Below are positions 2,162-64,000 of a DNA stretch of 64,000 nucleotides, in pieces; positions within the stretch are counted from its first letter, which is position 1; each line of letters starts with the position of its first letter. The DNA is from Phyllobates terribilis (taxonomy: Eukaryota): assembly GCF_046119375.1 (NCBI RefSeq), contig NW_027362764.1:799366001-799430000 (forward strand), written 5' to 3'. A model generated the notes under the pieces. It was not told where the DNA came from, ran no database searches, and worked only from the letters and a program-made list of their open reading frames with translations. The translations under genes were made by a program, and so were the position numbers.

Positions 2162-2569
<408 letters not shown>

Positions 2570-2599
2570 TCAGCAGAATGTGAGGAGCCCGCGCTGCTG

Positions 2600-6000: not shown

Positions 6001-8224
6001 CATCATCAGCAGCGCTCCATCCTCTGCACTGCGTCATCAGCAGCAGCAGCGCTCCATCTTCTGCACTGCCCATCATCAGCAGCTCTCCATCCTCTGCACT
6101 GCGCCATCAACAGCAGCGCTCCATCCTCTGCACTGCGCCATCATCAGCAGCGCTCCATCCTCTGCACTGCGTCATCAACAGCAGCTCTCCATCCTCTGCA
6201 CTGCGCCATCATCAGCAGCGCTCCATCCTCTGCACTGCGTCATCAGCAGCAGCAGCGCTCCATCCTCTGCACTGCCCATCATCAGCAGCGCTCCATCCTC
6301 TGCACTGCCCATCATCAGCAGCTCTCCATCCTCTGCACTGCGCCATCAGCAGCAGCGCTCCATCCTCTGCACTGCGCCATCATCAGCAGCGCTCCATCCT
6401 CTGCACTGCATCATCAACAGCAGCCCTCCATCCTCTGCACTGCGTCATCAGCAGCAGCGCTCCATCCTCTGCACTGCGCCATCATTATCAGCAGCGCTCC
6501 ATCCTCTGCACTGCCCATCAGCAGCAGCGCTCCATCCTCTGCACTGCGCCATCAGCAGCGCTCCATCCTCTGCACTGCGTCATCAGCAGCAGCAGCGCTC
6601 CATCCTCTGCACTGCCCATCATCAGCAGCCCTCCATCCTCTGCACTGCGCCATCATCAGCAGCAGCGCTCCATCCTCTGCACTGCCCATCATCAGCAGCT
6701 CTCCATCCTCTGCACTGCGCCATCAGCAGCAACGCTCCATCCTCTGCACTGCGCCATCATCAGCAGCGCTCCATCCTCTGCACTGCATCATCAACAGCAG
6801 CCCTCCATCCTCTGCACTGCATCATCATCAGCAGCGCTCCATCCTCTGCACTGCGCCATCATCAGCAGCAGCGCTCCATCCTCTGCACTGCCCATCAGCA
6901 GCAGCGCTCCATCCTCTGCACTACGTCATCAACAGCAGCCCTCCATCCTCTGCAGTGCGTCATCAGCAGCAGCGCTCCATCCTCTGCACTGCATCATCAG
7001 CAGCAGCGCTCCATCCTCTGCACTGCACCATCATCAGCAGCGCTCCATCCTCTGCACTACGTCATCAGCAGCAGCCCTCCATCCTCTGCAGTGCGTCATC
7101 AGCAGCAGCCCTCCATCCTCTGCACTGCGCCATCATCAGCAGCCCTCCATCCTCTGCACTGCGTCATCATCAGCAGCGCTCCATCCTCTGCACTGCCCAT
7201 CATCAGCAGCGCTCCATCCTCTGCACTGCCCATCATCAGCAGCGCTCCATCCTCTGCACTGCCCATCATCATCAGCGCTTAATCCTCTGCACTGCGTCAT
7301 CAACAGCAGCGCTCCATCCTCTGCAGTGCGTCATCAGCAGCAGCGCTCCATCCTCTGCACTGCGCCATCATCAGCAGCAGCGCTCCATCCTCTGCACTGT
7401 GTCATCATCAGCAGCGCTCTATCTTCAGCACTGCGTCATCATCAGCAGCGCTGCATCCTCTACACTGTGTCAGCAGTAGCAGCGCTCCATCCTCTGCACT
7501 GCCCATCATCAGCAGCGCTCCATCCTCTGCACTGCGTCATCAGCAGCAGCGCTCCATCCTCTGCACTGCGCCATCACCATCAGCAGCGCTCCATCCTCTG
7601 TACTGCGTCATCATCAGCAGCGCTCCATCCTCTGTACTGCGTCATCATCAGCAGCGCTCCATCCTCTGCACTGCGTCATCATCAGCAGCAGCGCTCTATC
7701 CTCTACACTGTGTCAGCAGCAGCTGCGCTCCATCCTCTGCAGTGCGTCATCAGCAGCAGCGCTCCATCCTCTGCACTGCGCCGTCATCAGCAGCAGCGCT
7801 CCATCCTCTGCACTGTGTCATCATCAGCAGCAGCGCTCCATCCTCTGCACTGTGTCATCATCAGCAGCGCTCCATCTTCAGCACTGCGTCATCATCAGCA
7901 GCGCTCCATCCTCTACACTGTGTCAGCAGCAGCAACGCTCCATCCTCTGCACTGCCCATCATCAGCAGCGCTCCAGCCTCTGCAGTGCGTCATCAGCAGC
8001 AACGCTCCATCCTCTGCACTGCCCATCATCAGCAGCGCTCCAGCCTCTGCAGTGCGTCAGCAGCAGCAACGCTCCATCCTCTGCACTGCCCATCATCAGC
8101 AGCGCTCCATCCTCAGTAATGCGTCATCATCAGCAGCGCTCCATCCTCTAAACTGTGTCAGCAGCAGCAGCGCTCCATCCTCTACACTGTGTCAGCAGCA
8201 GCAGCGCTCCATCCTCTGCACTGC
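3008..8224. repeat. About 5.2-kb compound minisatellite, core CTCCATCCTCTGCACTGC plus variable (CAT)n(CAG)n linker, unit about 30-39 bp
   Basis: Directly visible tandem array, more diverged beyond about 7200. Confidence 0.97.
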
Positions 8225-14426: not shown

Positions 14427-14635
14427 AAAAATTGCAGACTCTGGAAGACCTACCGCTTGTACTGGCAACGTCCCTCGTGTTGGTGTTACGGGGAATGGTT
14501 GCCTGCCTTCTGTCTGCGGCCACCACTCTGCTTCTTCCTGCCTGTTGGGGTACTCTGCCTCCCTCCCCCTGTGTGCTGCTCTGCATGTCCTAAGCCAGGT
14601 TGGGTCAGCTACTAGATCATCCTGCTCAGTGCAGA

Positions 14636-17503: not shown

Positions 17504-17662
17504 GTTATAAAGCTGCATACAGGTCGCATCACTGGGCTCAGCTCCATCACAGGCATAATCTGACAGCAACCGCAGCAGTGAGAACAGCACCGACATCCCG
17601 CAGCCCAGGCCGCTTCTGAGGGATCAGAGTAATAGAGATCAGCTCGTCTTGGAGGATTTGGT

Positions 17663-21330: not shown

Positions 21331-21660
21331 CCAGGATAAGAGCCCATTGCCGGCCAGGACCGGGCAGCAGAGCGCGCTTCCTCCGTGTCCTCCTCCTCCC
21401 TGACATCTCCCCTACATGTCTACAGCCGTCACTGGCGGAGGAGTAGGCAGGAAGGAGCCGGAGGATCCGGGATCTCCCCATAGTCCTCCCGGGCTGCACC
21501 TCACTGTGTATCTGCGGAGATAAAACTGCTGCGGGAGCTCGTCCCTTCTATTCCCGGCACCGGTCACCATCACCGGGATCTGTGCCCCGATCTGTATCGT
21601 GCAGGAAGCTGATTGTACGATGTGAGGACGACCTGGATCTGCTGAGAGGCCGGAAGGAGA

Positions 21661-22783
21661 CACAGACGGCGGCTCCGCTCCCTGCAGCTCCTCTCCTGTT
21701 ATATATATATATATCCAGTGTGTGCAGAGTATGGGGGACACAGGCGGCTCCTCTCCCTGCAGCTCCTCTCCTGTTATACCTATATCCAGTGTGTGCAGTG
21801 TATGGGGGACACAGGCGGCTCCTCTCCCTGCAGCTCCTCTCCTGTTATATATATATCCAGTGTGTGCAGTGTATGGGGGACACAGGCGGCTCCTCTCTCT
21901 GCAGCTCCTCTCCTGTTATATATATATCCAGTGTGTGCAGTGTATGGGGGACACAGGCGGCTCCTCTCCCTGCAGCTCCTCTCCTGTTATATATATATCC
22001 AGTGTGTGCAGTGTATGGGGGACACAGGCGGCTCCTCTCCCTGCAGCTCCTCTCCTGTTATATATATCCAGTGTGTGCAGAGTATGGGGGACACAGGCGG
22101 CTCCTCTCCTTGCAGCTCCTCTCCTGTTTTATATATATATATATATATCCAGTGTGTGCAGTGTATGGAGGACACAGGCGGCTCCTCTCCCTGCAGCTCC
22201 TCTCCTGTTATATATATCCAGTGTGTGCAGTGTATGGGGGACACAGACGGCTCCGCTCCCTGCAGCTCCTCTCCTGTTATATATATATATCCAGTGTGTG
22301 CAGTGTATGGGGGGACACAGGCGGCCCCCCCCCCCTGCAGCTCCTCTCCTGTTATATATATATATCCAGTGTGTGCAGTGTATGGGGGACACAGGCGGCT
22401 CCGCTCCCTGCAGCTCCTCTCCTGTTATATATATATATCCAGTGTGTGCAGTGTATGGGGGACACAGGCGACTCCGCTCCCTGCAGCTCCTCTCCTGTTA
22501 TATATATCCAGTGTGTGCAGTGTATGGGGGACACAGGCGGTTCCTCTCCCTGCAGCTCCTCTCCTGTTATATATATATATCCAGTGTGTGCAGTGTATGG
22601 GGGACACAGGCGGCTCCGCTCCCTGCAGCTCCTGTCCTGTTATATATATATATATCCAGTGTGTGCAGTGTATGGGGGACACAGGCGGCTCCGCTCCCTG
22701 CAGCTCCTCTCCTGTTATATATATATCCAGTGTGTGCAGTGTATGGGGGACACAGGCGGCTCCACTCCCTGCAGCTCCTCTCC

Positions 22784-22819
<36 letters not shown>

Positions 22820-23131
22820 ATATATATCTATCCAGTGTGTGCAGTGTATGGGGGACACAGGCGACTCCGCTCCCTGCAGCTCCTCTCCTGTTATATATAT
22901 CCAGTGTGTGCAGTGTATAGGGGACACAGGCGGTTCCTCTCCCTGCAGCTCCTCTCCTGTTATATATATCCAGTGTGTGCAGTGTATGGGGGACACAGGC
23001 GACTCCGCTCTCTGCAGCTCCTCTCCTGTTATATATATATATATCCAGTGTGTGCAGTGTATGGGGGACACAGGCGGCTCCGCTCCCTGCAGCTCCTCTC
23101 CTGTTATATATATATCCAGTGTGTGCAGTGT
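21661..23131. repeat. H1-upstream minisatellite: about 61-bp fixed core plus variable (TA)n
   Basis: TCCAGTGTGTGCAGTGTATGGGGGACACAGGCGGCTCCGCTCCCTGCAGCTCCTCTCCTGT(TA)n. Further tracts at 23951-24173, 30603-32369, 40483-41692, 42740-43042 and 44669-44787. Confidence 0.96.
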
Positions 23132-30074: not shown

Positions 30075-30602
30075 TGTGTGATGAGGAACAGACACAAGAA
30101 TCTCCTGGAAGGAAAACACTGAGGACGGAGCTGGAGGCGCCTCTTATATATACAGTCACACTGCGCACTGATTGGCTGCTTCCTCCTGAGCTTCTATTGG
30201 CTGACACTGGACACAGGCCCCGTCCCTCCTGTCTGAGCCGAGTGAAGCTCCGCTCTCCCTTGTGCTTCCCTGCCCGGGATAAGAGCCCAGTACCGGCCAG
30301 GACCGGGCAGCAGAGCGCGCTTCCTCCGTGTCCTCCTCCTCCCTGACATCTCCCCTACATGTCTACAGCCGTCACTGGCGGAGGAGGAGGCAGGAAGGAG
30401 CCGGAGGATCCGGGATCTCCCCATAGTCCTCCCGGGCTGCACCTCACTGTGTATCTGCGGAGATAAAACTGCTGCGGGAGCTCGTCCCTTCTATTCCCGG
30501 CACCGGTCACCATCACCGGGATCTGTGCCCCGATCTGTATCGTGCAGGAAGCTGATTGTACGATGTGAGGACGACCTGGATCTGCTGAGAGGCCGGAAGG
30601 AG

Positions 30603-31568
30603 ACACAGACGGCGGCTCCGCTCCCTGCAGCTCCTCTCCTGTTATACCTATATCCAGTGTCTGCAGAGTATGGGGGACACAGGCGGCTCCTCTCCCTGCA
30701 GCTCCTCTCCTGTTATATATATATATATATATATCCAGTGTGTGCAGTGTATGGGGGGACACAGGCGGCTCCGCTCCCTGCAGCTCCTCTCCTGTTATAT
30801 ATATATATCCAGTGTGTGCAGTGTATGGGGGACACAGGCGGCTCCTCTCCCTGCAGCTCCTCTCCTGTTATATATATGCAGTGTATGGGGGGACACAGGC
30901 GGCCCCCCCCTGCAGCTCCTCTCCTGTTATATATATATATATCCAGTGTGTGCAGTGTATGGGGGACACAGGCGGCTCCGCTCCCTGCAGCTCCTCTCCT
31001 GTTATATATATATATCCAGTGTGTGCAGTGTATGGGGGACACAGGCGGCTCCTCTCCCTGCAGCTCCTCTCCTGTTATATATATATCCAGTGTGTGCAGT
31101 GTATGGGGGACACAGGCGGCTCCGCTCCCTGCAGCTCCTCTCCTGTTATATATATCCAGTGTGTGCAGTGTATGGGAGACACAGGCGGCTCCGCTCCCTG
31201 CTGCTCCTCTCCTGTTATATCTATATCCAGTGTGTGCAGTGCATGGAGCACACAGGCTCCGCTCCCTGCAGCTCCTCTCCTGTTATATATATATATCCAG
31301 TGTGTGCAGTGTATAGGGGACACAGGCTCCGCTCCCTGCAGCTCCTCTCCTGTTATATATATATATATCTAGTGTGGGCAGTGTATGGAGGAACACAGGC
31401 GGCTCCGCTCCCTGCAGCTCCTCTCCTGTTACATATATATATCCAGTGTGTGCAGTGTATGGGGGACACAGGCGGCTCCTCTCCCTGCAGCTCCTCTCCT
31501 GTTATATATATCCAGTCTGTGCAGAGTATGGGGGACACAGGCGGCTCCTCTCCTTGCAGCTCCTCTCC

Positions 31569-31629
<61 letters not shown>

Positions 31630-32369
31630 CAGTGTGTGCAGTGTATGGGGGACACAGGCGGCTCCTCTCCCTGCAGCTCCTCTCCTGTTATATATATCCA
31701 GTGTGTGCAGTGTATGGGGGACACAGACGGCTCCGCTCCCTGCAGCTCCTCTCCTGTTATATATATATATATATATATATCCAGTGTGTGCAGTGTATGG
31801 GGGGACACAGGCGGCTCCCCCCCCCCGCAGCTCCTCTCCTGTTATATATATATATCCAGTGTGTGCAGTGTATGGGGGACACAGACGGCTCCGCTCCCTG
31901 CAGCTCCTCTCCTGTTATATATATATATTCAGTGTGTGCAGTGTATGGGGGGACACAGGCGGCTCCCCCCCCCTGCAGCTCCTCTCCTGTTATATATATA
32001 TTCAGTGTGTGCAGTGTATGGGGGACACAGGCGGCTCCTCTCCTTGCAGCTCCTCTCCTGTTTTATATATATATATATATATATATCCAGTGTGTGCAGT
32101 GTATGGGGGACACAGGCGGCTCCGCTCCCTGCAGCTCCTCTCCTGTTATATATATATCCAGTGTGTGCAGTGTATAGGGGACACAGGCTCCGCTCCCTGC
32201 AGCTCCTCTCCTGTAATATATATATCCAGTGTGTGCAGTGTATGGGGGACACAGGCGGCTCCTCTCCCTGCAGCTCCTCTCCTGTTATATATATATATAT
32301 CTTGTGTGGGCAGTGTATGGAGGAACACAGGCGGCTCCGCTCCCTGCAGCTCCTCTCCTGTTATATATA
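30603..32369. repeat. H1-upstream (TA)n minisatellite, unit B tract
   Basis: Same unit as 21661-23131. Confidence 0.96.
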
Positions 32370-40205: not shown

Positions 40206-40482
40206 CGTGTCCTCCTCCTCCCTGACATCTCCCCTACATGTCTACAGCCGTCACTGGCGGAGGAGGAGGCAGGAAGGAGCCGGAGGAGCCGGGATCTCCC
40301 CATAGTCCTCCCGGGCTGCACCTCACTGTGTATCTGCGGAGATAAAACTGCTGCGGGAGCTCGTCCCTTCTATTCCCGGCACCGGTCACCATCACCGGGA
40401 TCTGTGCCCAAATCTGTATCGTGCAGGAAGCTGATTGTACGATGTGAGGACGACCTGGATCTGCTGAGAGGCCGGAAGGAGA
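40206..40482. other. Orphan H1 far-upstream block of a third histone unit
   Basis: Near-identical to 21384-21660 and about 30327-30602 and followed by the same satellite. The H1 promoter and gene are absent. Confidence 0.9.
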
Positions 40483-41692
40483 CACAGACGGCGGCTCCTC
40501 TCCCTGCAGCTCCTCTCCTGTTATATCTATATCCAGTGTGTGCAGTGTATGGGGGACACAGGCTCCGCTCCCTGCAGCTCCTCTCCTGTTATATATATAT
40601 ATATATATCCAGTGTGTGTAGTGTATGGGGGACACAGGCGGCTCCTCTCCCTGCAGCTCCTCTCCTGTTATATATATATATCCAGTGTGTGCAGTGTATG
40701 GGGGACACAGGCGGCTCCTCTCCCTGCAGCTCCTCTCCTGTTATATATATTTATCCAGTGTGTGCAGTGTATGGGGGACACAGGCGGCTCCTCTCCCTGC
40801 AGCTCCTCTCCTGTTATATATATATCCAGTGTGTACACTGTATGTGGTACACAGGCGGCTCCGCTAATTGCAGCTCCTCTCCTGTTATATATATCCAGTG
40901 TGTGCAGTGTATGGGGGACACACGCGGCTCCTCTCCTTGCAGCTCCTCTCCTGTTATATATATATATATATATATATATCCAGTGTGTGCAGTGTATGGG
41001 GGACACAGGCGGCTCCGCTAATTGCAGCTCCTCTCCTGTTATATATATCCAGTGTGTGCAGTGTATGGGGGACACAGGCGGCTCCTCTCCCTGCAGCTCC
41101 TCTCCTGTTATATATATATCCAGAGTGTACACTGTATGTGGTACACAGGCGGCTCCGCTCCCTGCAGCTCCTCTCCTGTTATATATATATATCCAGTGTG
41201 TGCAGTGTATGGGGGACACAGGCGGCTCCGCTCCCTGCAGCTCCTCTCCTGTTATATATATATATATATCCAGTGTGTACAGTGTATGGGGGACACAGGC
41301 GGCTCCTCTCCCTGCAGCTCCTCTCCTGTTATATATATATCCAGTGTGTACACTGTATGTGGTACACAGGCGGCTCCGCTCCCTGCAGCTCCTCTCCTGT
41401 TATATATATATATCCAGTGTGTGCAGTGTATGGGGGACACAGGCGGCTCCACTCCCTGCAGCTCCTCTCCTGTTATATATATATCCAGTGTGTACAGTGT
41501 ATGGGGGACACAGGAGGCTGCGCTCCCTGCAGCTCCTCTCCTGTTATATATATATCCAGTGTGTGCAGTGTATGTGGGACACAGGAGGCTCCGCTCCCTG
41601 CAGCTCCTCTCCTATTATATATATCCAGTGTGTACAGTGTATGGGGGACACAGGCGGCTCCACTCTCTGCAGCTCCTCTCCTGTTATATATC

Positions 41693-44668: not shown

Positions 44669-47600
44669 TATATATATCCCGTGTATGCAGTGTATGGGGG
44701 ACACAGGCGGCTCCGCTCCCTGCACCTCCTCTCCTGTTATTAGGCTCCGCTCCCTGCAGCTCCACTCCACACATATATATATATATACAGGGTGGTCCAA
44801 AAGTAGGTGGCTAGAAAATAATAACATTTATTTTGATTTATATATAAAATGATATTTACTAACACAAGCATAACATTGACAATTACATTTTATTCTGAAC
44901 AATAATACAAAAGCCCTTAAATTTTATCACCACAGGGGCTCGCACTGTTTTCCATTGCAATTTGCACAGCTTTGAAGTCGCCTCTTTCGCTTCAACAAAC
45001 TTTTTTGCACAAGTCTCTTTGGGTATTAATTTCTTGAAATCCATCTCTTATGTAATTTTTCAAATCACTGACACTTTTTGGTTTTCGACTATAAACTTTG
45101 TCCTTGAGTACTCCCCAAAAGAATAAATCCATTGGGGTCAAGTCTGGTGAACGTGCCGGCCAATCACGTGGGCCTCTTCGGCAAATCCATTTGTTAGGAA
45201 ATGTTTCATCAAGATACTCGCGGACCACTCTTGAATAATGTGGAGGGGCCCCATCTTGTTGGAAATAAAGGTCATTTGAATTAGGCTGTTGCTGTAACTG
45301 GGGAACAACTTGATTCATTAGAATTTCGAGATACTTATCTCCTGTGACTGTTCCATCAAAAAATATTGGTCCTAAAACACCAAAACTTGAAATACCCCCC
45401 CAAACATTGACACCAGGCTCATTTAGTTGTTGCTCTAATGTTAAATGCATGTTCTCATTATACCAGTAAATACAATTATGTCTGTTAATATGGCCGGATA
45501 ATTTGAAAGAAGCTTCATCACTCTGTAACATCCCTGGCGGCATGCTGGCATGGCTTACCACCTCCCACCATGCAAGACCGCCATCTTACCTATCAGTCCA
45601 GGCTGCACACTTTGCTCCAGTACCTGCTGTGTGCATGTCTCTTGTCTGATTGCTTAAGGCGGCGGCGCGGTTACTGCCTGAGTCTTATAGTTACTGTGTG
45701 CGCACTCCTAATGCGTCCCCAGCCTATTGTTGTGAGTCACTGGATACTTAAACCCCCTCCACCCAGTAGGAGGTGCCTGAGCAACACTTTCTTTCAGTAT
45801 GTTATGTGCAACTGAGCTCCCAGGTCCTGTCCTGTATCTTGTCTGTTTCCGCCATCCTGTGGGCTGTATACCCCGGCCTTTTACCTGTATCTGTGACTTC
45901 TAGTCTGTTTCTGCCTCCCTGGGGGCTGTATACCCTGGCCCGTTACCTGTATCTGTGACTTCTAGTCTGCTCCGCCACCCTGGGGGCTGTATACCCAGGC
46001 CTGCTACCTGTATCTGTGACTTCTAGTCTGTTCTGCCACATTGGGGGCTGAATACCCAGGCTCGTTCCTGTATCTTGTTCCTGTCTGAACAGTGTCCTAG
46101 CCCGTTACTTGTTTGTCTCTATGTTCATATCTTTCCTTTTCCTGCAGTGTCTGAACCTGCACCTAACTCCAACTCGTTGTCTCTGTACTTCTGTTTGTGA
46201 GTTTAGTGTCCACTTGCTACTTCATTGTAAGTACCTTGTGTGTATTTGCTCTGCTCTGCTTGTCTACCGCACCTGCGGGTTTTGCTCTGCTCTGCTTGTC
46301 TACCGCACCTGCGGGTTTTGCTCTGCTCTGCTTGTCTACCGCACCTGCGGGTTTTGCTCTGCTCTGCTTGTCTACCGCACTTGCGGGTTTTGCTCTTCTC
46401 TGCTTGTTTGCCGCACTTGCGGCTCTGTTCCTGTATCCCAGTCTGTACTGGTCCCTATCCTGCCTGCGTTCCTACCTGCCAGTATCCACCTGTCTGTATG
46501 ACGCGCCCCCTGGGCCTGTGTTGTGTAGCGTTGCGCACGCGGGGAATACCCGGAGCCGGATCTGTCGGGGTTAGTAGTCCTCGTGGCGGTGACCCGGTCC
46601 GTGCCCAGGGTGTCAAACTAAGTGGCGGAATTTAGCAGAAGATGTTATAGTGTTCGACTACGCCACCCGTTGAATGCGGTTATGAAGCCGCCGCTGCAGG
46701 GCAGACCGCTGAGGCCGGTGGTACAGTTGTGCAGCATGGGTAGTATAACCCCCAACGGGAGGGGTATGGCCTCAGGGCAGCAGACGTGGATGATGGGGAT
46801 AGCAGAATTGCACGCAGGCACCAGGAACCACTCAGAGACGGTGCGGTGTAGTTCAGGGTCTTTACTGGTGGCAAAGGTAGACCCTCCCGGGAGTACTGGC
46901 TAGCGATCGGGGCCTGGTCAGTCCGTGAGCAGATAGGATCTCCCCCGGCCAGGCGGAGTTGTAGGCCTCCCCAACTAATTGTACTCTTCCTGGCTACCTT
47001 GCTAGAAGCGGGTAAAAGTAGCCCACGTCCCTGAGTGTACCGTGTGGTGCTCACCCGTATGGCCGGTGACTCGGGGCCTTCTGGTAGCCTCCGCTCCACG
47101 ACGGCGGTGCTGGTCCCTTGCGTGTGACCGTGCCTTCGGGTTTCTTGGCCAGAGGACCTGAAATCCCCTGCCGGACGGTTTCTGCTGCTGGGTATGGAAC
47201 AGTACCCACAGCCTCGGACTCCGTGTCCGGTGAGATCTTTTCAGTCAGGACGAGCTCTACAGCTTCCAGTCCTGGACCCCTTTTATCACTGCTCCCACAG
47301 AGCTCCTGATCTTGCTCTCCCTGCATCTGCTCCACTCCAGACCAGACTGTGTCTCTGTCTGGGACTCCTCTTCTTCTCTTCTTTTTCTTACCTAACCCCA
47401 CCTCAGCCCCAGTTTATATAGGGGAAGTTCTTCCCCTCCCAGGACTGGTCAGGAGGTGTGGCATGCTTAGGGTTCCTGACCAGGAGACCTCCCACCTGCT
47501 CTCAGACGTAATATTGCTATTACTGTGGTAACCAGAACCCTGGGGTGCCACATTCCCCCCTAGTAAAATTTAGTACTCCGGGACTAAACATATTTTTGAA

Positions 47601-47918: not shown

Positions 47919-50900
47919 TTAGATCCTCCAACGTACGGGCAACTGGCCTCTATTGGCCCTAGTAGACCTACGGAGCTTACTGACCGGTCCTGAGCTACAG
48001 GGTGTAGGAGCTGTCAAAGGTAAGCTGGGCAGCTGTCTACGGACTCTTTGGCTCACTAGGGGCACGGCAGGCTCACTATAAGCAGAGGGTCGATTCTCCT
48101 GGTCTGCTTGTGTGGGGTCTTCTGCCTCCTGGACCGGCTGCTCTTCCAGCTCTACCTGTTTTTCCGTAGGCACTTGGGATGCTGGCTGGAGGAAGGTGAG
48201 GACGGGTACCACAACCGCGCCATTTACCTGTGTCCAAGACCGAGGGAAGTCTCCGAGTACAGTACTGACCATCTCTTCCCTTTCCTCTGCGGTTTGAGGG
48301 TTTTCTTGATCTTCTTCAGGGTTTCGTAGCTGCTCGGGACACTTCTTCAGGTGATCTCGGGAGACAATGGCTGTGGTTTCTCCTCCATCCTTACTGATTG
48401 TGCAGATTTTTGGGTTTTCATGGCTTGATGGCAGTACGGTGTACGGGTCCTTCTCCCACTGGTCGACCAACTTGTGGAGCCGTCTTTTCCTCTTCAAGAC
48501 CTGCTCTCCAGGTACCAGGGGAACAGCGGGAGCATGCTGGTTGTAAGTCTTCTCCTGTCTTTCTCTTGCTTGACGGAGACTTCGCTCAACGCTCTCCTGT
48601 ACTTTCCGGTACTGCTGCTGCCTCTCTGTGTCCCAGTCTGCTTCTGGTGAAGTGTCCTCGGGTGTCAGGACTCCCATATCCAGATCAACAGGCAGCTTAC
48701 CAGGTCTTGCTCTCATTAGGTAAGCCGGGGTACAGTTGGTAGAACCTACAGGGATGTGGTTGTATAGGTCCACCAGATCAGGCAGTTTCTCAGGCCACAG
48801 ACTGCGTTCTTCCAGGGGCAATGTTTTCAGAAGGTCTATCACCACCTGGTTCATCTTCTCGCAAAGTCCATTGGTTTGCGGATGATAGGGTGTTGTTCTT
48901 ATCTTCCGGCAGCCATACAGAGTGCAGAACTCCTGGAAGACTTCCGCTTCAAAGGCAGGTCCTTGGTCCGTCAGCACCTGCTCTGGGTATCCGTGTGGAC
49001 GACAGAAGTGCTGCTGGAAGGCTCTAGCTGCTGTTTGAGCCGTTAAGTCCTTGACGGGGACTACAACCAAGAACCGGGAGTAGTGATCCACGATGGTTAA
49101 CGCATAGACGTAGCCACTTCTGCTGGGGGTCAGTTTTACATGGTCCAAGGCTACCAGTTCCAACGGCTGCCTGGTGACGATGGACTGCAGGGGAGTCTTC
49201 TGGCTGGCACGGTCCTTCCTTCTTAGGTTGCATGGGCCACAGTCTCTGCACCACCTCTCGATGGTCCCTCTCATGCCTACCCAGTGGAACCGCCCGCGCA
49301 GCAGGAACTCCAGCTTCTTCCATCCGAAGTGCCCAGCTCCGTCGTGGTATGCCTCCAGTACCATAGCCGCGTCTCTTCTTGGCACCACTACTTGCCAGAT
49401 CAGTTCATGCGTCCGGGAGTTAACCATTCTGTGGCACAACTTCCCCTTGTAAAGAAACAGTCGACTCTTCTCAGCCCACAGTTGTTTGGTCTCCTCCGGA
49501 GCGTCTGGGTCAAGGCGGGCATCTGGCCGAGTCAGCATCTCCTCCACTAGTCGGATGGCGGGGTCACTGTCTTGTGTTTCCGCCCAGTTGTAATGAGGTA
49601 AGGGGTTGAACGTAGCGGATTGCTTACCCCTTACACGGTGGGAATACTGGGTAGTCCCATGACGGTGAAACGCGGGGAGTTCAACTTCTTCCAGTTCCTC
49701 TGGATCTTCCCCTACGTCCGGTAGGTTTGGCATTCTGGACAAGGCATCCGCGTTGGTATTGGAGCGTCCTGCCCGGTATTTGATCGTGAACTCATAGTTG
49801 GACAGGCGGGCCATCCATCTCTGCTCCAGGGCACCGAGTCTTGCAGTGTCCAGGTGTGTCAACGGGTTGTTATCCGTGTACACGGTGAACCGCGAAGAGG
49901 CGAGGTAGTGCTTAAAGCGTTCGGTGACTGCCCACACCACTGCCAGGAACTCTAGCTTAAATGAGCTGTAATTCTCAGGGTTTCTTTCGGTGGGTCGCAG
50001 TTTTCGGCTGGCGTAAGCAATTACCCGTTCTCTCCCCTGCTGGATCTGGGACAGTACGGCTCCTAGCCCGATGTTACTTGCGTCGGTGTAGAGGATAAAG
50101 GGCTGGCTGTAATCAGGGTACGCCAGGATTTCATCCCCCGTGAGGGCCATCTTCAGCTGGCGGAAGGACTCTTCTTCCAGCTTCTCCCATCTGAAGGGCG
50201 GCTTCTGGTTCTTGGCCTTCCTGGACTGGCCTATCAGGAGGTCCTTCATAGGAGCTGCCTTTTTGGTGAAACCGGGAATGAATCTTCGGTAGTAGCCTAC
50301 CAACCCGAGGAACTGCCGCACTTCCTTTACGCTGGAGGGTCTTGGCCATTCCTTAAACGCGGTGATCTTATCAGGGTCGGGAGCCACTCCGTCAGCACTC
50401 ACCAGGTGTCCCAGGTACTGCACTTTTGGTTTTAGCAGGTGACACTTCGACGGTTTCACCTTCAGACCGTAGTTTGCCAGGGCTTCGAACACTTCCGCCA
50501 GGTGTTTCAGGTGGTCCTCGTAGGTTTTGGAATAAACTATAACATCGTCCAGGTACAGCAGGAACGTCTCAAAGTTCCGGTGTCCCAGACAGCATTCCAT
50601 CAATCGTTGGAAGGTTCCTGGTGCGTTGCAGAGTCCGAACGGCATGCAGGTAAACTCGCTAAGTCCCATCGGGGTAGTGAATGCGGTCTTCTCCCGGTCC
50701 GCCTCTGCGACAGGAACCTGCCAGTACCCGCTAGTGAGATCCAAAGTGGAGAAGAAGTTAGCAGATTTTAAAGCAGCCAAAGACTCCTCTATCCTTGGTA
50801 AGGGGTACGCATCTTTGTGTGTGATACGGTTGATTTTCCGGTAATCTACACACATTCTCATGGTGTTGTCTTTTTTTTTAACCAAGACTAGTGGAGCTGC

Positions 50901-52175
50901 GCAGGGGCTACAGCTATCCCTGATTACACCAGCCTCCTTCATGTCTCTAAGCATCCCCTTGGCGTGTTGGTAGTGTGCAGGGGGTACGGGACGATACCTT
51001 TCCTTTATGGGAGGATGATCTCCCGTGGGGATGTGATGTTCCACTCCCTTTACTCGCCCGAAGTCCAGCGGGTGTTTACTGAACACTCTCTCGTATTCCT
51101 GGATCACCCGGTAGACTCCCTGCTTTTGGTGAGCAGGTGTGGAGTCAGTACCCAAATGCAGTTGCTGACACCAGTCCTCCATTTGTTGCTTAGAGCCGTT
51201 ACCTTCCTCTGGATGAGATGGAGGCAAGGGTTCCACGGACTGTACAGAATTTTGGTTGATGGTATACAATTTGGCTAGCGTAGCATACCGGGGCAGGTAC
51301 ACTTCCCTCTTCCCGATATTTATTATGCGAACGGGCACCCTCCCATGGCGTACATCAACCACCCCCCGTGCAGTCAAAATGGTGGGCCTACTATCTGAGT
51401 AGACTGGTTCTACCATTGCCTGGTAATCTCTACCTCTCAGACCAATAGCTGCCCGGCACCAAATCATCATTTCACTTTTCGGGGGCATGGCAATAGGGAA
51501 AGGGTCACACATTCTCACGCTACCAATCTCACCACCGGAGAGTTCCACCTGTTGCCGTCGCATCAGTGCCCGGATCTCTTTTTGGAGCACTCGCTGCTGG
51601 CCGGAGCTGGCGTTCTTGGCAATCTGCTGTAAAATGAGAATCACCTCTGCAAGACAATTTTCAATCACATTAGTTCCTAGAGTTATCTTTGGGTGACTCT
51701 CGCGCTTGTCAATGTCTACAATGATCAGTCCCTGTGCTGCCAGTTCGACTTTACCGATTTTAATGGTCATCTCTTTAAATCCGATCTGTGGCACGGGCTG
51801 ACCATTGCTGGCGATGATACTCAAGTCGTCGTCTGGGTAGCGGGTTATATCCGAGTCATTCCAGTACTGCTTGAAGAGCACGTACGGGATGGTGGTGACC
51901 TGTGACCCGGTGTCAAGTAGGGCACTCATAGGAATGCCATCCAGTACTACAGGCAAAACTGGACGTCCTCCCACGTATTTGTCACGCCAGTTCGATGGGC
52001 CTGGTGATCTTATTCCTAGGGGTTGGCCCTCTACCCCAGGTTGTGCCAGTTTAAAGGACAGTACCTTGCCATATGTCCGGGTTGATTGCAGCGGCGGCAG
52101 ATGGGTTGTCCGTCCTCGTTGTATCGGTCGCTGGGTCTTCCTCTGGCCGGTGGGGTCCTCCTTGGTCGGCGCCAC
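47919..52175 (-). CDS. pol: Gypsy Pol (PR-RT-RNaseH-IN), probably reached by a -1 frameshift
   Basis: LLDTGSQ, YLDD, YTDAS, HHCC, DDE (VALDH, LTDQG, CEKMN); open for 1418 codons. Confidence 0.96.
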   Translation of the reverse strand: MAPTKEDPTGQRKTQRPIQRGRTTHLPPLQSTRTYGKVLSFKLAQPGVEGQPLGIRSPGPSNWRDKYVGGRPVLPVVLDGIPMSALLDTGSQVTTIPYVLFKQYWNDSDITRYPDDDLSIIASNGQPVPQIGFKEMTIKIGKVELAAQGLIIVDIDKRESHPKITLGTNVIENCLAEVILILQQIAKNASSGQQRVLQKEIRALMRRQQVELSGGEIGSVRMCDPFPIAMPPKSEMMIWCRAAIGLRGRDYQAMVEPVYSDSRPTILTARGVVDVRHGRVPVRIINIGKREVYLPRYATLAKLYTINQNSVQSVEPLPPSHPEEGNGSKQQMEDWCQQLHLGTDSTPAHQKQGVYRVIQEYERVFSKHPLDFGRVKGVEHHIPTGDHPPIKERYRPVPPAHYQHAKGMLRDMKEAGVIRDSCSPCAAPLVLVKKKDNTMRMCVDYRKINRITHKDAYPLPRIEESLAALKSANFFSTLDLTSGYWQVPVAEADREKTAFTTPMGLSEFTCMPFGLCNAPGTFQRLMECCLGHRNFETFLLYLDDVIVYSKTYEDHLKHLAEVFEALANYGLKVKPSKCHLLKPKVQYLGHLVSADGVAPDPDKITAFKEWPRPSSVKEVRQFLGLVGYYRRFIPGFTKKAAPMKDLLIGQSRKAKNQKPPFRWEKLEEESFRQLKMALTGDEILAYPDYSQPFILYTDASNIGLGAVLSQIQQGRERVIAYASRKLRPTERNPENYSSFKLEFLAVVWAVTERFKHYLASSRFTVYTDNNPLTHLDTARLGALEQRWMARLSNYEFTIKYRAGRSNTNADALSRMPNLPDVGEDPEELEEVELPAFHRHGTTQYSHRVRGKQSATFNPLPHYNWAETQDSDPAIRLVEEMLTRPDARLDPDAPEETKQLWAEKSRLFLYKGKLCHRMVNSRTHELIWQVVVPRRDAAMVLEAYHDGAGHFGWKKLEFLLRGRFHWVGMRGTIERWCRDCGPCNLRRKDRASQKTPLQSIVTRQPLELVALDHVKLTPSRSGYVYALTIVDHYSRFLVVVPVKDLTAQTAARAFQQHFCRPHGYPEQVLTDQGPAFEAEVFQEFCTLYGCRKIRTTPYHPQTNGLCEKMNQVVIDLLKTLPLEERSLWPEKLPDLVDLYNHIPVGSTNCTPAYLMRARPGKLPVDLDMGVLTPEDTSPEADWDTERQQQYRKVQESVERSLRQARERQEKTYNQHAPAVPLVPGEQVLKRKRRLHKLVDQWEKDPYTVLPSSHENPKICTISKDGGETTAIVSRDHLKKCPEQLRNPEEDQENPQTAEEREEMVSTVLGDFPRSWTQVNGAVVVPVLTFLQPASQVPTEKQVELEEQPVQEAEDPTQADQENRPSAYSEPAVPLVSQRVRRQLPSLPLTAPTPCSSGPVSKLRRSTRANRGQLPVRWRI

Positions 52176-53448: not shown

Positions 53449-55444
53449 ATGTTGACGCGCCCCCTGGGCCTGTGTTGTGTAGCGTTGCGCACGCGGGGAA
53501 TACCCGGAGCCGGATCTGTCGGGATTAGTAGTCCTCGTGGCGGTGACCCGGTCCGTGCCCAGGGTGTCAAACTAAGTGGCGGAATTTAGCAGAAGATGTT
53601 ATAGTGTTCGACTACGCCACCCGTTGAATGCGGTTATGAAGCCGCCGCTGCAGGGCAGACCGCTGAGGCCGGTGGTACAGTTGTGCAGCATGGGTAGTAT
53701 AACCCCCAACGGGAGGGGTATGGCCTCAGGGCAGCAGACGTGGATGATGGGGATAGCAGAATTGCACGCAGGCACCAGGAACCACTCAGAGACGGTGCGG
53801 TGTAGTTCAGGGTCTTTACTGGTGGCAAAGGTAGACCCTCCCGGGAGTACTGGCTAGCGATCGGGGCCTGGTCAGTGCGTGAGCAGATAGGATCTCCCCC
53901 GGCCAGGCGGAGTTGTAGGCCTCCCCAACTAATTGTACTCTTCCTGGCTACCTTGCTAGAAGCGGGTAAAAGTAGCCCACGTCCCTGAGTGTACCGTGTG
54001 GTGCTCACCCGTATGGCCGGTGACTCGGGGCCTTCTGGTAGCCTCCGCTCCACGACGGCGGTGCTGGTCCCTTGCGTGTGACCGTGCCTTCGGGTTTCTT
54101 GGCCAGAGGACCTGAAATCCCCTGCCGGACGGTTTCTGCTGCTGGGTATGGAACAGTCCCCACAGCCTCGGACTCCGTGTCCGGTGAGATCTCTTCAGTC
54201 AGGACGAGCTCTACAGCTTCCAGTCCTGGACCCCTTTTATCACTGCTCCCACAGAGCTCCTGATCTTGCTCTCCCTGCATCTGCTCCACTCCAGACCAGA
54301 CTGTGTCTCTGTCTGGGACTCCTCTTCTTCTCTTCTTTTTCTTACCTAACCCCACCTCAGCCCCAGTTTATATAGGGGAAGTTCTTCCCCTCCCAGGACT
54401 GGGCAGGAGGTGTGGCATGCTTAGGGTTCCTGACCAGGAGACCTCCCACCTGCTCACAGACGTAATATTGCTATTACTGTGGTAACCAGAACCCTGGGGT
54501 GCCACATGTATACCAGCCGTGCCTGCCAGTATCCACCTGTCGGTATACCAGCCGTGCCTGCTAGTACCCACCTGTCTGCATACCAGCCGTGCCTGCCAGT
54601 ACCCACCTGTCTGTATACCAGCCGTGCCTGCTAGTATCCACCTGTCTGCATACCAGCCGTGCCTGCCAGTACCCACCTGTCAGTATGCCAGCCTAACCTG
54701 CCTGTTCCTGCATTCCCCGGTATGGGTCAACAGCTGTGACCGGGGTCTGACCTGGAGTAGCACCTGGTCTCTCTGCTTGGTTCCTCCCTGGTTCACGGAG
54801 TCGATTGAGCCGCCGTGCGACCTTGGTCGGACCGAGTGGATACTTAGTCACGCCCCTCCAGGCACTCCTCGGTTCATGGTCCAGTGGGATCACTAACCAC
54901 ACTCGCGTCAGTCAGTCAGGGCGTGTGCGTAACACACTCCACATAATGTTATCTAAAATTACTGGATTTTCTTCAATTTCGTTAAGCATAATCTCACTAA
55001 ATTGCAGCCGCCTGTCTGGATCATCTTCCAATAAACCATGAATTAGACGTGGACGAGAAGCTTTCCACCCCATAGATAGATTTCAGGATTCGCATGATAG
55101 AAGCTCGTGAAATTCCCAATTCCACAGAGGCTCTTCTGGTGACTTTTTTGGACTCTGAACAAATGTTTCAGCAACAAGTTGTTTATTATCTTCTGTACAG
55201 ACTGTTTTGGGTCGAGCAGTTTTTGGAGCATTAAGGATTGAGCCAGTGGCATTGAATTTGTCACCAATGCGGTAAATGGTTTGTCTCTTTGGGGCTTGAG
55301 TACCAAATGTTTCAACCCAATTTGCTCTAACGGTTTCAGCATTTAGAGATTTCAAATACTCCGTTAAAATCCATTTTCTTAGATCTGTATTTAAATTATT
55401 TGCCATTATGTGTTATCTGAATTATCTGAAAAGAAAACAGATTT

Positions 55445-55623: not shown

Positions 55624-56224
55624 TTCATAACCTTATTACACTTTCTGTCCACCTACTTTTGGACCACCCTGTATGTATGTATATATAGTGCATTTTCTAC
55701 CTCTTGCCACATTTCTGGCTTCAAACATAAAGATATAAAATTCTAATTTTTTTGGGAAGAATAAACAACAAGTGGGACACAAACGTGAAGTGGAACGAAA
55801 TTTATTGGATATTTTAAAATTTTTTAACAAATTAAAAACTGAAAAGTGGGGTGTGCAATATTATTCGGCCCCCTTGAGTTAATAATTTGTAGCGTCACCT
55901 TTTGCTGCGATTACAGCTGCAAGTCGCTTGGGGTATGTCTCTATCAGTTTTGCACATCGAGAGGCTGAAATTCTTGCCCATTCTTCCTTGCAAAACAGCT
56001 CGAGCTCATTGAGGTTGGATGGAGGGCGTTTATGAACAGCAGTTTTCAGCTGTTTCCACAGATTCTCGATTGGATTCTGGTCTGGACTTTGACTTATCCA
56101 TTCTAACACCTGGATACGTTTATTTTTGAACCATTCCATTGTAGATTTTCCTTAATGTTTGGGATCATTGTCTTGTTGGAAGATAAATCTCCATCCCAGT
56201 CTCAGGTCTTTTGCAGACTCCAAC

Positions 56225-57860
56225 TGTTATGTTCTGCTACCAGAGCTAAGGAAAGAGAGGAGATCTGTCCCTACGATAGAACTCAGCTGAATCCCTACGA
56301 TGTAACAGGGAACCTGATCCTGCGATCAGACCTGCTAAAGTCCTAAGCTAGTCTGTACGGAGACCTATAGATGTGGGGAAGGAATCCCTACAAGTACTAA
56401 GGACTGGGAGGAAAATGGGACACCTCCTAACAGAAATAGTAGCAGACAGACGAACAAACAAAATATATAGAACATAGAGGTCCGTAGACCAAGCAAACTA
56501 ACAGAGTTAGATACAGAGCACAGGCTAGCTAGAAAGTAGTTATACAATGAAGTCCAGCAAAGCCAGAAGGGGGGAGCAGGATTAAATAGGCCAACAAGGT
56601 CATGTGACCAGCAAAGGAAAAAACCTAAGAGCAAGGTTCTAACAGTACCCCCCCTTCTAAGAGGATCCTCCGGATCCCCTAGGACCAGGCTTATCAGGAA
56701 ATCTCCTGTGAAACGCTCTGATAAGTCTGGACGCGGAAACATCATCTGACCTCACCCAAGAGTTATCCTCGGGTCCGAAACCTTTCCAGGCCACAAGATA
56801 CTGCAAACTACCTCTATACCGTCTAGAGTTAAGGATGCGAGAAATTTCATATTCCCCGTCCTCCACCACCGGAGGAACAGAGGCAGAGGCGTCACCATCC
56901 GACACAACAGCTTTTTTTAACAGAGAGACATGAAATACCGGATTAATTCTCCAGGAGGTAGGAACCTCCAACCTAACAGCAGATTGGTTGACAACCTGAA
57001 GCACCTTAAAGGGCCCTACAAACTTGGGACCCAATTTCTTAGAAGGAATCCTCAACCGCAGATTCCTAGAGGACAACCAAACCATGTCACCAACAGTGAA
57101 CAAAACCTCCTGTCGTTTCCTATCAAAGTAGTCTTTAGATTTTCTGTTGGCCTCCTGAAGATTACCACGCACATCCGTCCAAACTCTCTCCAAATCACCG
57201 GAAAAATTCTCCTCCTCAGGCACGGCAGATCCCAACTTGGAGAACGACCCAAACGACGGATGTCTCCCAGAACAACAAAAAAAAGGCGAACAACCAGCAG
57301 AAGAAGATGTATGATTGTTCAGAGCAAATTCAGCAAGTGGCAGAAACTCAGACCACCCCTCTTGATTGTCTGCCACAAAACAACGCAAGAACTGCTCAAC
57401 ATCCTGGTTTTTCCTTAGAGAATTTGCAGGCTGGACTTACTGTTATGTTCTGCTACCAGAGCTAAGGAAAGAGAGGAGATCTGTCCCTACGATAGAACTC
57501 AGCTGAATCCCTACGATGTAACAGGGAACCTGATCCTGCGATCAGACCTGCTAAAGTCCTAAGCTAGTCTGTACGGAGACCTATAGATGTGGGGAAGGAA
57601 TCCCTACAAGTACTAAGGACTGGGAGGAAAATGGGACACCTCCTAACAGAAATAGTAGCAGACAGACGAACAAACAAAATATATAGAACATAGAGGTCCG
57701 TAGACCAAGCAAACTAACAGAGCTAGATACAGAGCACAGGCTAGCTAGAAAGTAGTTATACAATGAAGTCCAGCAAAGCCAGAAGGGCGGAGCAGGATTA
57801 AATAGGCCAACAAGGTCATGTGACCAGCAAAGGAAAAAACCTAAGAGCAAGGTTCTAACA
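56225..57860 (-). mobile_element. Mini (1636 bp) chromovirus-type LTR element with two 420-bp LTRs
   Basis: LTRs 56225-56644 and 57441-57860 (2 differences seen); TSD CCAAC; PPT 56648-56658. Confidence 0.95.
56657..57412 (-). pseudogene. Integrase C-terminal part (GPY/F) plus chromodomain
   Basis: RKNQDVEQFLRCFV...KLGPKFVGPF...FHVSLLK...EYEISRILNSR...QYLVAWKGFGPEDNSW. No ATG. Confidence 0.88.
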
Positions 57861-59353
57861 CCAACAGGTTTTCTTCCAGAATGGTCCTGTATTTAGTTCC
57901 GTCCATCTTCCCATCAATTTTAACCCCTTAACAACATTTGACGTACTAATATGCGTCTGTGCCCTGGGACTTAAGAGCCAGACCCGTATTAGTACGTCAT
58001 GGCGATCGCGCGGGCACACAGGCTGTGCGGACGCGATCGCCGCCGGGTGTCAGCTGATTGTCACAGCTGACACCCGGTACTATGTGCAGGGAGCGGTCCT
58101 TCACCGCTCCTAGCACATTAACCCCCGCGATGCTGCAATCGAAGTCGATCGCAGCATTGCGGTGGCAAGGGGAGGTGATCGCAGATACTCACCTCCTCTT
58201 CCAGCTTCCAGCGCTGACTGACGTGGCTTCCAGGATGTTGCCATGACGACCCGATGTCGTCATGACAACATCCGGGTCACCAGACAGCAGGAAGATTTTT
58301 TGGACATGCGCAGTGCATCTCCAAACAATCTTCTCCCTGTCCAGCGCTGACAGCCTGCATGGCACAGGGATGGTGCTGCATTCCTGTGCCATGCAGGCGA
58401 TCAGAGAAAAAAAAGTGAAAGTCCCACAGTGGGACAAAGTAATAAAGTATTAAAACTATCAGAAAGTGCAAAAAAAAAAAATTGTAAAAATATTAAAAAA
58501 AAAATAATCCACCAAAAATAAAAATATAATGTACCCATCAATAAATATTATTATAAAAAAAAAAAAAACAATAAAAGTACACATATTTGGTATTGCCGCG
58601 TCCGGAACAACCTGACCTATAAAACTGTCTCACTAGTTAACTCCTTCAGTGAACACGGTAAAAAATAAAAATAAAAAACGAAGCAAAAAACAATGCTTTA
58701 TCACCATACCACCAAACAAAAAATGGAATAACACGCGATCAAAAAGACAAATATAAATAAAAATGGTACCGCTGAAAACGTCATCTCGTCCCGCAAAAAA
58801 CAAGTTGCCATACAGCTCCATCAGCCGAAAAATAAAAAAGTTATAGCTCTCAGAATAAAGCTATGCTAAAAAATAATTTTTTCTATAAAATTGCTTTTAT
58901 TATGTAAAAGTGCAAAATATAGAAATACAATACAAATGTGGTACCGCTGTAAACGTACTGACCCGAAGAATAAAGCTGCCTTATCAATTTTGCCACACGC
59001 GGAACAGAATAAAAAAGAAAAAAAAATTCCTGAATTGTTGGTTTTTGTTTATTCTGCCTCCCAAAAATCGAAATAGAAAGCGATCAAAAAATGTCACGTG
59101 CCTGAAAATGGCATCAATAACAACATCAACTCATCCCACAAAAGGCGAGCCGTCACATGACTGTCTGCCAAAATCTGGAGAAATTATAGGTCTCAAAATA
59201 TGGCGATGCAAAAACTAGTCTTTTAGTGTGTGACAGCTGTCAGTCATAAAAACCCCATATGATTCTGGTATCGTTGTAATCACACCGACCTGAAGAATAA
59301 AGTCGTCTAATCACTTATACCGCATGAGGAACGGCGTAAAAAATAAACTCTCA

Positions 59354-62672: not shown

Positions 62673-62760
62673 TGCTCAAAAAAATAAAGGGAACAGTGAA
62701 ATAACACATCCTAGATTTGAATGACTGAAATATTCTCATTGTCCTTAAAACAAGTCACAA
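62670..62760 (-). mobile_element. Terminus of a third Tc1 family
   Basis: TA-CACTGCTCAAAAAAATAAAGGGAACA terminus leading straight into the 71-bp array. Confidence 0.75.
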
Positions 62761-64000
62761 TGAGGCTGAGTATTGTGTGTGGCCTCCACGTGCCTGTATG
62801 ACCTCCCTACAACGCCTGGGCATGCTCCTGATGAGGCTGAGTATTGTGTGTGGCCTCCACGTGCCTGTATGACCTCCCTACAACTCCTGGGCATGCTCCT
62901 GATGAGGCTGAGTATTGTGTGTGGCCTCCACGTGCCTGTATGACCTCCCTACAACACCTGGGCATGCTCCTGATGAGGCTGAGTATTGTGTGTGGCCTCC
63001 ACGTGCCTGTATGACCTCCCTACAACGCCTGGGCATGCTCCTGATGAGGCTGAGTATTGTGTGTGGTCTCCACGTGCCTGTATGACCTCCCTACAACGCC
63101 TGGGCATGCTCCTGATGAGGCTGAGTATTGTGTGTGGCCTCCACGTGCCTGTATGACCTCCCTACAACGCCTTGGCATGCTCCTGATGAGGCTGAGTGTT
63201 GTGTGTGGCCTCTACTGTAGGACCTCCCTACAACGCCTGGGCATGCTCCTGATGAGGCTGAGTATTGTGTGTGGCCTCCACGTGCCTGTATGACCTCCCT
63301 ACAACGCCTGGGCATGCTCCTGATGAGGCTGAGTATTGTGTGTGGCCTCCACGTGCCTGTATGACCTCCCTACAATGCCTGGGCATGCTCCTGATGATGC
63401 TGAGCATTGTGTGTGGCCTCCACGTGCCTGTATGACCTCCCTACAATGCCTGGGCATGCTCCTGATGAGGCTGAGTATTGTGTTTGGCCTCCACTTGCCT
63501 GTATGACCTCCCTACAACGCCTGGGCATGTTCCTGATGAGGCTGAGTATTGTGTGTGGCCTCCACGTGCCTGTATGACCTCCCTACAACGCCTGGGCATG
63601 CTCCTGATGAGGCTGAGTATTGTGTTTGGCCTCCACTTGCCTGTATGACCTCCCTACAACGCCTGGGCATGCTCCTGATGAGGCTGAGTATTGTGTGTGG
63701 CCTCCACGTGCCTGTATGACCTCCCTACAACGCCTGGGCATGCTCCTGATGAGGCTGAGTATTGTGTGTGGCCTCCACGTGCCTGTATGACCTCCCTACA
63801 ACACCTGGGCATGCTCCTGATGAGGCTGAGTATTGTGTGTGGCCTCCACGTGCCTGTATGACCTCCCTACAACGCCTGGGCATGCTCCTGATGAGGCTGA
63901 GTATTGTGTGTGGCCTCCACGTGCCTGTATAACCTCCCTACAATGCCTGGGCATGCTCCTGATGAGGCTGAGTATTGTGTGTGGCCTCCACGCGCCTGTA
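62761..64000. repeat. 71-bp satellite derived from a Tc1 transposase C-terminus, at least 17 copies, runs off the window
   Basis: Unit TGAGGCTGAGTATTGTGTGTGGCCTCCACGTGCCTGTATGACCTCCCTACAACGCCTGGGCATGCTCCTGA; minus strand reads LIRSMPRRCREVIQARGGHTQY. Confidence 0.92.

What the first reader, a model, noticed from the sequence alone, without database searches (positions are those of the whole stretch)
56225..57860. Mini chromovirus with a self-priming (tRNA-independent) signature, retaining only integrase tail plus chromodomain
Seen: there is no TGG-type PBS. Instead, AAGTCCAGC just after the 5' LTR (plus strand 57430-57438) is complementary to GCTGGACTT inside the LTR (57766-57774), which begins 30 nt downstream of a TATTTAA box, i.e. 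at the expected transcript 5' end. LTRs are about 99.5% identical, and PPT and 5-bp TSD are intact. A leader of about 25 nt is fused just after the catalytic Glu position of integrase at ...CTAAG|GAAAAAC. Established: Tf1/sushi-group elements self-prime by pairing the first about 9-11 nt of the mRNA with the PBS. Inference: a cis-competent non-autonomous TRIM-like family, possibly a retrotransposed spliced subgenomic RNA.
Basis: partly seen in the sequence, partly recalled or inferred. Interest (0 to 1): 0.7.

Follow-up and report, generated by a model that had tools for sequence, protein, structure and literature searches.

The report
Gutted copy of self-priming retrotransposon
This is a young copy of a very abundant jumping gene that lost two-thirds of its length at a short repeated sequence, not a spliced copy and likely not a self-sustaining mini-family; its family likely starts copying with the front end of its own RNA, a trick known from yeast, and dozens of folded-back sister copies carry one extra letter that likely records the RNA's cap.

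Summary
Anatomy confirmed: 1,636-bp LTR element, LTRs 418/420 identical, TSD, PPT, and a 9-nt PBS complementary to the LTR 30 nt after TATTTAA. It is a 3.33-kb internal deletion of a 4.97-kb single-ORF chromovirus whose LTR-end+PBS 21-mer occurs 13,311 times. The junction is an AAGGAAA microhomology; no placement gives splice ends. Only 5 copies share it and one origin is rejected (AU p about 1e-5); other leader-to-internal deletions recur too. So: recurrent template-switch debris, neither spliced nor a TRIM family. Self-priming is supported (a compensatory change in a sister family) but inherited and in print for Tf1/sushi elements; the scan noted it before in another family of this genome. 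Unexpected: 91 copies run from the PBS into inverted U3; 87 have C at the junction, where U3 would give A. This fits a plus strand ending in the copied self-primer plus a cap-templated C, which would pin the RNA start at 57774. Inferred, not shown.

The parts
57441..57860 (-). 5' LTR, 420 bp, TG...CA
57798..57804 (-). TATTTAA, predicted TATA box
   Evidence: similar A/T box at the same spacing in related families
57766..57774 (-). GCTGGACTT, predicted first 9 nt of the RNA and self-primer
   Evidence: pair probabilities 0.95-1.0 with the PBS in the folded predicted leader; compensatory change in a sister family
57462..57470 (-). U5 arm TTTCCTTAG of a predicted U5-leader duplex (one side duplex of the 'pretzel')
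   Evidence: 9 bp here, 11 bp in 3 of 3 typical parents; same pairing of 7-12 bp in most related families, not seen in the ATGTCCAGC family
57430..57438 (-). PBS AAGTCCAGC, 2 nt (GT) after the LTR; not TGG type
57429..57429 (-). C directly after the PBS; no partner in the LTR; inferred partner or copy of the m7G cap
   Evidence: C in 60 of 60 loci where the pattern left it free; base before the LTR arm was T, C or A, never G, in the 86 of 90 loci where it could be read
57408..57418 (-). Leader arm of the duplex (57418-57410) and deletion junction: microhomology AAGGAAA (57416-57410), 9 nt to 57408 in variant parents; 3,331 bp of gag, PR, RT, RNase H and integrase core removed
56657..57415 (-). 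Integrase C-terminal remnant (residues 1124-1375): SH3_Tf2-1 about 57091-56909, chromodomain about 56851-56702; first in-frame ATG at codon 118 of 259, behind three other ATGs
56648..56658 (-). Polypurine tract
56225..56644 (-). 3' LTR, 420 bp
57861..57865 (-). TSD GTTGG (second copy 56220-56224)
55879..56224 (-). Host sequence: Tc1/mariner-type (DDE_3) transposase remnant into which the element inserted
   Evidence: DDE_3, E 5.5e-6, below the curated cut-off; empty-site contigs join 56219/56220 to 57861

Best explanation
The element is an internally deleted copy of a 4.97-kb Tf1/sushi-type chromovirus, joined at a short AAGGAAA repeat, likely by a reverse-transcriptase template switch that recurred in different parental subgroups, and it inherits the family's likely self-priming signals. 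Steps. (1, shown) Leader and integrase share AAGGAAA; the join removes 3,331 bp and keeps LTRs, PBS, PPT and TSD. (2, shown) The 5 copies with this join do not form one clade, and other leader-to-internal joins recur. (3, inferred) The jump happened during cDNA synthesis and the product was integrated by proteins of a full-length copy; a later chromosomal deletion would look the same. (4, inferred from covariation and Tf1 literature) The RNA starts at 57774, its first 9 nt pair with the PBS, RNase H cuts after nt 9 and the fragment primes the minus strand. (5, inferred from fold-back copies) The capped primer stays on the cDNA and is copied into the plus strand's 3' end together with a C opposite the cap; now and then that end folds back on its complement in R and copies U3 backwards.
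For: Parent: 14 of the 23 stretches fetched hold 4,957-4,995-bp elements; 5 of the 14 have one 1,363-1,375-codon open frame with gag, PR, RT, RNase H, IN, SH3, chromo (one copy scanned). Junction counts 5 vs 13,311. One clade of the 5 rejected: p-AU 1.65e-5 (23 rows) and 1.13e-5 (56 rows). Of 30 loci examined out of 45 with an unusual leader continuation: 4 join to this site, 2 to the other AAGGAAA (parent position 3621), 2 to 3829, 1 each to 1419 and 1343, 10 fold back on the LTR, 10 are small variants. Covariation: PBS A with arm T in 59 of 60 loci; PBS T with arm A in 24 of 28 (the other 4 not read by the script); one parental-family point mutant is uncompensated. Fold-backs: 91 matches; first base after the PBS C in 87, A in 4; 85 are exactly PBS+C in register. 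In 30 examined of the 90: 26 distinct insertion flanks, at least 3 families, the inverted copy spans all of U3, then jumps to varied places; TSD intact in 7 of 8 with both ends held. Tf1 cDNA often keeps a single-stranded PBS copy at its 3' end (PMC11042837 section 8); dC is almost always the first untemplated base on capped RNA for MMLV RT (PMC6885630 passages).
Against: No RNA start was measured. One clade for the four other minis is not rejected (p-AU 0.09), and L003/L004 are identical in 5' LTR, leader and internal part, so a small burst from one deleted master is possible. Recombination with co-packaged helper RNA could move one junction between subgroups and fake several origins. The compensatory change is one evolutionary event. 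The genomic base after the PBS is also C, so the fold-back C could be copied from the genome if synthesis pauses exactly there for another reason. In the ATGTCCAGC family only 2 fold-backs were found, 1 with C and 1 with A. Fold-backs also occur at other inverted repeats without any mismatch (10 of 30), so folding back needs no strong-stop end.
Confidence: 0.78

Rival explanations
1. A small non-autonomous lineage: one deleted master was re-transcribed and mobilised in trans, with recombination shuffling its LTRs.
For: All 5 have their own intact TSD; L003 and L004 are identical; 4 of 5 may be one clade (p-AU 0.09); cis signals are kept.
Against: Only 5 of 13,311; the window copy is 10-15 LTR substitutions from the other minis but 2-3 from full-length copies; L003/L004 sit on a zero-length branch beside full-length copies and share no private change; three leader variants among the 5.
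Confidence: 0.12
2. The deletion arose after integration, by microhomology-mediated repair of a chromosomal break in a full-length copy.
For: Microhomology join and intact TSD fit this equally; several origins are expected in a family this large.
Against: LTRs differ by only 0-2 substitutions in all 5, leaving little time; sister rearrangements (inverted U3 with copied PPT) look like reverse-transcription products.
Confidence: 0.2
3. Retrotransposed spliced subgenomic RNA.
For: An AG lies in the integrase repeat at one placement.
Against: At that placement the removed piece starts with GA; none of 10 placements, in either leader variant, gives GT/GC..AG or AT..AC; 5 copies only.
Confidence: 0.01
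4. The PBS binds an internal tRNA fragment and the LTR match is incidental.
For: The PBS is conserved across families only 72-85% alike in the LTR, as an external primer would cause; only tRNA-Lys(UUU) genes were retrieved for testing.
Against: Perfect complement at a fixed place after the TATA-like box in nearly all copies; PBS and LTR arm change together; another gypsy family in this genome has an ordinary TGG PBS.
Confidence: 0.04

Closest known systems
Tf1/sushi group chromoviruses, vertebrate V-clade (Sushi-ichi, Amn-ichi/ni/san); PMC6317226, PMC10085805, PMC4600332, passages read
   Same: Chromodomain at the integrase C-terminus, no tRNA PBS, self-complementary PBS, side duplexes of the 'pretzel' type, 5-bp TSD.
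   Different: Parent here has one open gag-pol frame, whereas PMC10085805 says non-fission-yeast members mostly frameshift; predicted primer 9 nt against 11 nt in Tf1 (PMC7175516 passage). No tree with named elements was built.
Tf1 of Schizosaccharomyces pombe: retained self-primer and single-stranded PBS tail (PMC11042837 section 8)
   Same: Plus-strand 3' end carrying a PBS copy that can pair elsewhere and cause aberrant products.
   Different: Shown biochemically in yeast; here read from integrated fold-back copies, with a uniform +C rather than the unspecified untemplated bases mentioned there.
TRIMs and other non-autonomous LTR elements (PMC13570524 passages)
   Same: Short, LTR-PBS-PPT intact, no autonomous coding capacity.
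   Different: 1,636 bp (over the 1-kb and 1.5-kb limits), keeps a 252-codon integrase remnant, 5 copies of more than one origin, no amplification shown.

Membership tests
Tf1/sushi chromovirus | Ty3/gypsy order PR-RT-RH-IN in the parent | tested here: met
Tf1/sushi chromovirus | Chromodomain at the integrase C-terminus | tested here: met
Tf1/sushi chromovirus | PBS complementary to own LTR, not to a tRNA 3' end | tested here: met
   internal tRNA fragments tested only for tRNA-Lys
Tf1/sushi chromovirus | Three-duplex 'pretzel' structure | tested here: inconclusive
   Central duplex and a 5-bp duplex at the LTR end in the predicted fold; 9-12-bp U5-leader complement in the parent and most related families, absent in the ATGTCCAGC family; prediction only
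Tf1/sushi chromovirus | RNA 5' end at the primer and RNase H cleavage | not testable with these tools
   No usable raw RNA reads
Tf1/sushi chromovirus | RT-IN phylogeny within the V-clade | not tested
   No named reference sequences in hand
TRIM | Under 1 kb (extended definition 1.5 kb), non-coding | tested here: not met
   1,636 bp with integrase remnant; limits from PMC13570524
TRIM | Amplified family from one defective master | tested here: not met
   5 copies, one clade rejected; 4 of the 5 not excluded as a clade
Spliced subgenomic retrocopy | GT/GC..AG or AT..AC at the ends of the removed piece | tested here: not met

The most novel reading that the evidence does not exclude
The genome holds a fossil record of cap copying in self-primed reverse transcription. 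In these vertebrate chromoviruses the capped 9-nt self-primer stays on the cDNA, RT copies it and adds a C opposite m7G, and that is why every family keeps a C right after the PBS (it completes the match for the second strand transfer). About 90 independent-looking integrated copies show this end folding back on R. Such fold-backs would map the RNA start and primer length of any self-priming family from DNA alone.
Probability: 0.6. Interest if true: 0.6.

Novelty: new member of a known kind. Interest (0 to 1): 0.4.

Why it matters
The element itself matters little: it is one of many broken by-products of a large young family. The side result matters more. Self-priming was demonstrated in yeast Tf1 and, in the passages I read, is described as implicated or predicted for vertebrates. 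A compensatory change plus about 90 fold-back copies with a uniform +C would be in-genome evidence that vertebrate elements do it, that the primer keeps its cap and is copied, and where the RNA starts. It gives a DNA-only test for other self-priming families.

Tried and rejected
Splicing: rejected. 9-nt microhomology as the rule: the BLAST search favoured a rare leader variant; 30 of 30 unselected copies have only the 7-nt repeat. 'Breakage hot spot' at the leader motif, suggested by L034, L038, L040: dropped as a selection effect of that search; one search also looked at this one position only, so no hot spot is claimed. DNA similarity searches undercount badly (8 hits for the integrase piece), so exact patterns were used for counts. 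RNA start: no RNA holder listed; the two raw-read runs laid gave 2 and 0 reads, contig runs cannot show starts. tRNA set: all 30 loci fetched were tRNA-Lys(UUU), no match to the PBS. PF03732 search for more covarying families returned mostly another gypsy group; several of 20 fetched had a TGG PBS and none was self-priming by my scan. A coded chromodomain protein: first in-frame ATG is codon 118 behind three other ATGs; no support. Fold-back test in the ATGTCCAGC family: 2 copies, 1 C and 1 A, too few. Not held, so not read: Lin and Levin 1997, Atwood-Moore 2006, Esnault and Levin 2015, Levin 1996; Butler 2001 seen only as a citation. Searches for the cap or fold-back idea gave 0 papers, 3 listings not on it by title, 12 listings of 80 (one read), and no earlier scan note; on microhomology deletions gave 0. 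The unread Tf1 papers may already report a terminal C.

Full report
OBSERVATION. The element is as described: minus strand, 56225-57860, two 420-bp LTRs differing at 2 sites, TSD GTTGG, PPT, no TGG after the LTR, and AAGTCCAGC (57438-57430) complementary to GCTGGACTT (57774-57766), which begins 30 nt after the start of TATTTAA. Such a match arose in 52 of 5000 LTR shuffles, with a TATA-like box at that spacing in 1 of 5000. The internal 796 bp hold a short leader and integrase residues 1124-1375, starting just after the catalytic Glu. It sits in a Tc1-type transposase remnant; contigs of two public runs show the empty site.

PARENT. The window's genome (10.6 Gb) holds 13,311 exact matches to the LTR-end+PBS 21-mer. 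The first 30 along contig 1 all belong to this family, 95-99% alike; some later ones are rearranged or related families, so the family size is somewhat lower. Of 23 stretches fetched, 14 are 4,957-4,995-bp elements, 5 of them with one open frame of 1,363-1,375 codons; the rest are shorter, rearranged, open-ended or another family. One long frame carries gag, protease, RT, RNase H, integrase, SH3 and chromodomain.

THE JUNCTION. Leader and integrase share AAGGAAA; a rare leader variant extends this to 9 nt. The deletion is 3,331 bp. None of 10 placements gives splice-type ends in either leader variant. An exact pattern finds 5 copies, each with its own TSD. They are not one clade: p-AU 1.65e-5 on internal part plus 3' LTR (23 rows) and 1.13e-5 on 5' LTR plus leader (56 rows). 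The window copy lies among 420-bp-LTR full-length copies (2-3 differences), the other four among 422-bp ones (10-15 differences from it). Those four are not rejected as a clade (p 0.09), and two are identical but share no private change against full-length neighbours. As a control I asked what else follows this leader position: 45 copies, 30 examined; 4 carry this join, 2 join the other AAGGAAA in pol (a third by its matched letters), 4 join three other places, 10 fold back on the LTR, 10 are small variants. The mini is one item in a spectrum of short-homology jumps. Whether the jump happened in cDNA or on the chromosome is not settled.

SELF-PRIMING. It is a family trait. 29 of 30 unselected copies keep the arm 333-335 nt before the LTR end; related families with LTRs 72-85% alike keep both arms and an A/T box at the same spacing. 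A more distant family (338 pattern matches) has ATGTCCAGC and GCTGGACAT: PBS A goes with arm T in 59 of 60 loci, PBS T with arm A in 24 of 28, and a point mutant of the main family is uncompensated. This is one compensatory event. A second complement pairs U5 with the leader (11 bp in parents, 9 bp kept in the mini), like a side duplex of the Tf1 'pretzel' (PMC10085805, passages). Self-priming in vertebrate Tf1/sushi elements is in print as a group feature (PMC6317226, PMC4600332, PMC10085805, passages), and an earlier scan note reports it for another family of this genome (e1-9302274, unchecked). Another note there describes an abundant pol-less family (e1-9279011), the kind of amplification this mini lacks.

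FOLD-BACK COPIES. Four loci ran from the PBS straight into the reverse complement of U3. A pattern found 90 such copies, 87 with C and 3 with A at the first base after the PBS; with a free gap, 91 copies: 85 PBS+C in register, 1 with C inserted, 1 with CC, 4 starting with A. U3 as template gives A. Of 30 examined, 26 have distinct flanks; at least three families are involved; the inverted copy runs the whole U3 to the LTR start, mostly plus GT, sometimes into the PPT, then jumps to varied internal sites; 7 of 8 with both ends held have an intact TSD. Inference: the primer of the inverted synthesis was a plus strand ending in PBS+C, extended over a terminal mismatch. A switch in mid-elongation should favour the matched A, as in the mismatch-free fold-backs at other repeats. 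A discrete end at PBS+1 is what copying a retained 9-nt primer and its m7G cap would give. In Tf1 about half of particle cDNA carries a single-stranded PBS copy at its 3' end (PMC11042837, section 8 read), and MMLV RT almost always adds dC first on capped RNA (PMC6885630, passages). It would also explain why C follows the PBS in 60 of 60 free loci while the base before the LTR arm is never G in 86 readable of 90. Against: the genomic base there is also C, so a pause at +1 for another reason fits; the second family gave only 1 C and 1 A; no RNA or cDNA ends were seen; and the primary Tf1 papers were not held, so a terminal C may be in print. Searches and scan look-ups did not turn it up. No supplements were read.

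VERDICT. The finding is an internally deleted member of a large, young Tf1/sushi-type chromovirus family: not spliced, not a TRIM by size, content or amplification (PMC13570524, passages). Self-priming is well supported but known in kind. The fold-back copies with +C are the part worth following. Interest 0.4.

Noticed in passing
L227-L256; 90-91 places listed: Integrated copies with PBS + C + inverted U3, then a jump into the element; likely fold-back of the plus-strand end.
   Followed up: yes
L257, L259, L263, L264, L266, L270, L271: Fold-backs at the leader/U5 inverted repeat, with inverted U5 after the leader; DNA-level trace of the predicted side duplex.
   Followed up: partly
L256, L252, L241 after the inverted U3: The inverted copy continues through GT and 11-14 PPT bases before jumping, as if a retained PPT primer had been copied.
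   Followed up: no
L049, L050 integrase core: Both have GTA (Val) at the catalytic Glu codon though their frames are open and LTRs nearly identical; a possibly integrase-dead subgroup.
   Followed up: no
L040 (G000:C11:251.226-251.237 Mb): About 4.9-kb tandem unit, three copies, each with head-to-head LTR pieces of this family.
   Followed up: no
L066/L067, L083; C1:20.005-20.019 Mb: PBS matches about 4.5 kb apart: tandem elements sharing an LTR.
   Followed up: no
L075: A solo LTR of the family inserted in the gag of another copy.
   Followed up: no
L118, L125, L130, L132, L133: A different gypsy group with about 1.5-kb LTRs and a TGG-type PBS.
   Followed up: partly
window 48477-50933 (-), flanked by 46499-47553 and 53453-54507: Distant RT/integrase matches (26-39% identity) between two 1,055-bp repeats 99.4% alike: another young LTR element.
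   Followed up: no
window 3004-8224, 14624-17504, 21656-23131, 30599-32369, 40478-41691, 62760-64000: Long tandem arrays with units of about 70 bp.
   Followed up: no
L197-L226: Large tandem clusters of tRNA-Lys(UUU) genes on contigs 1 and 11.
   Followed up: no
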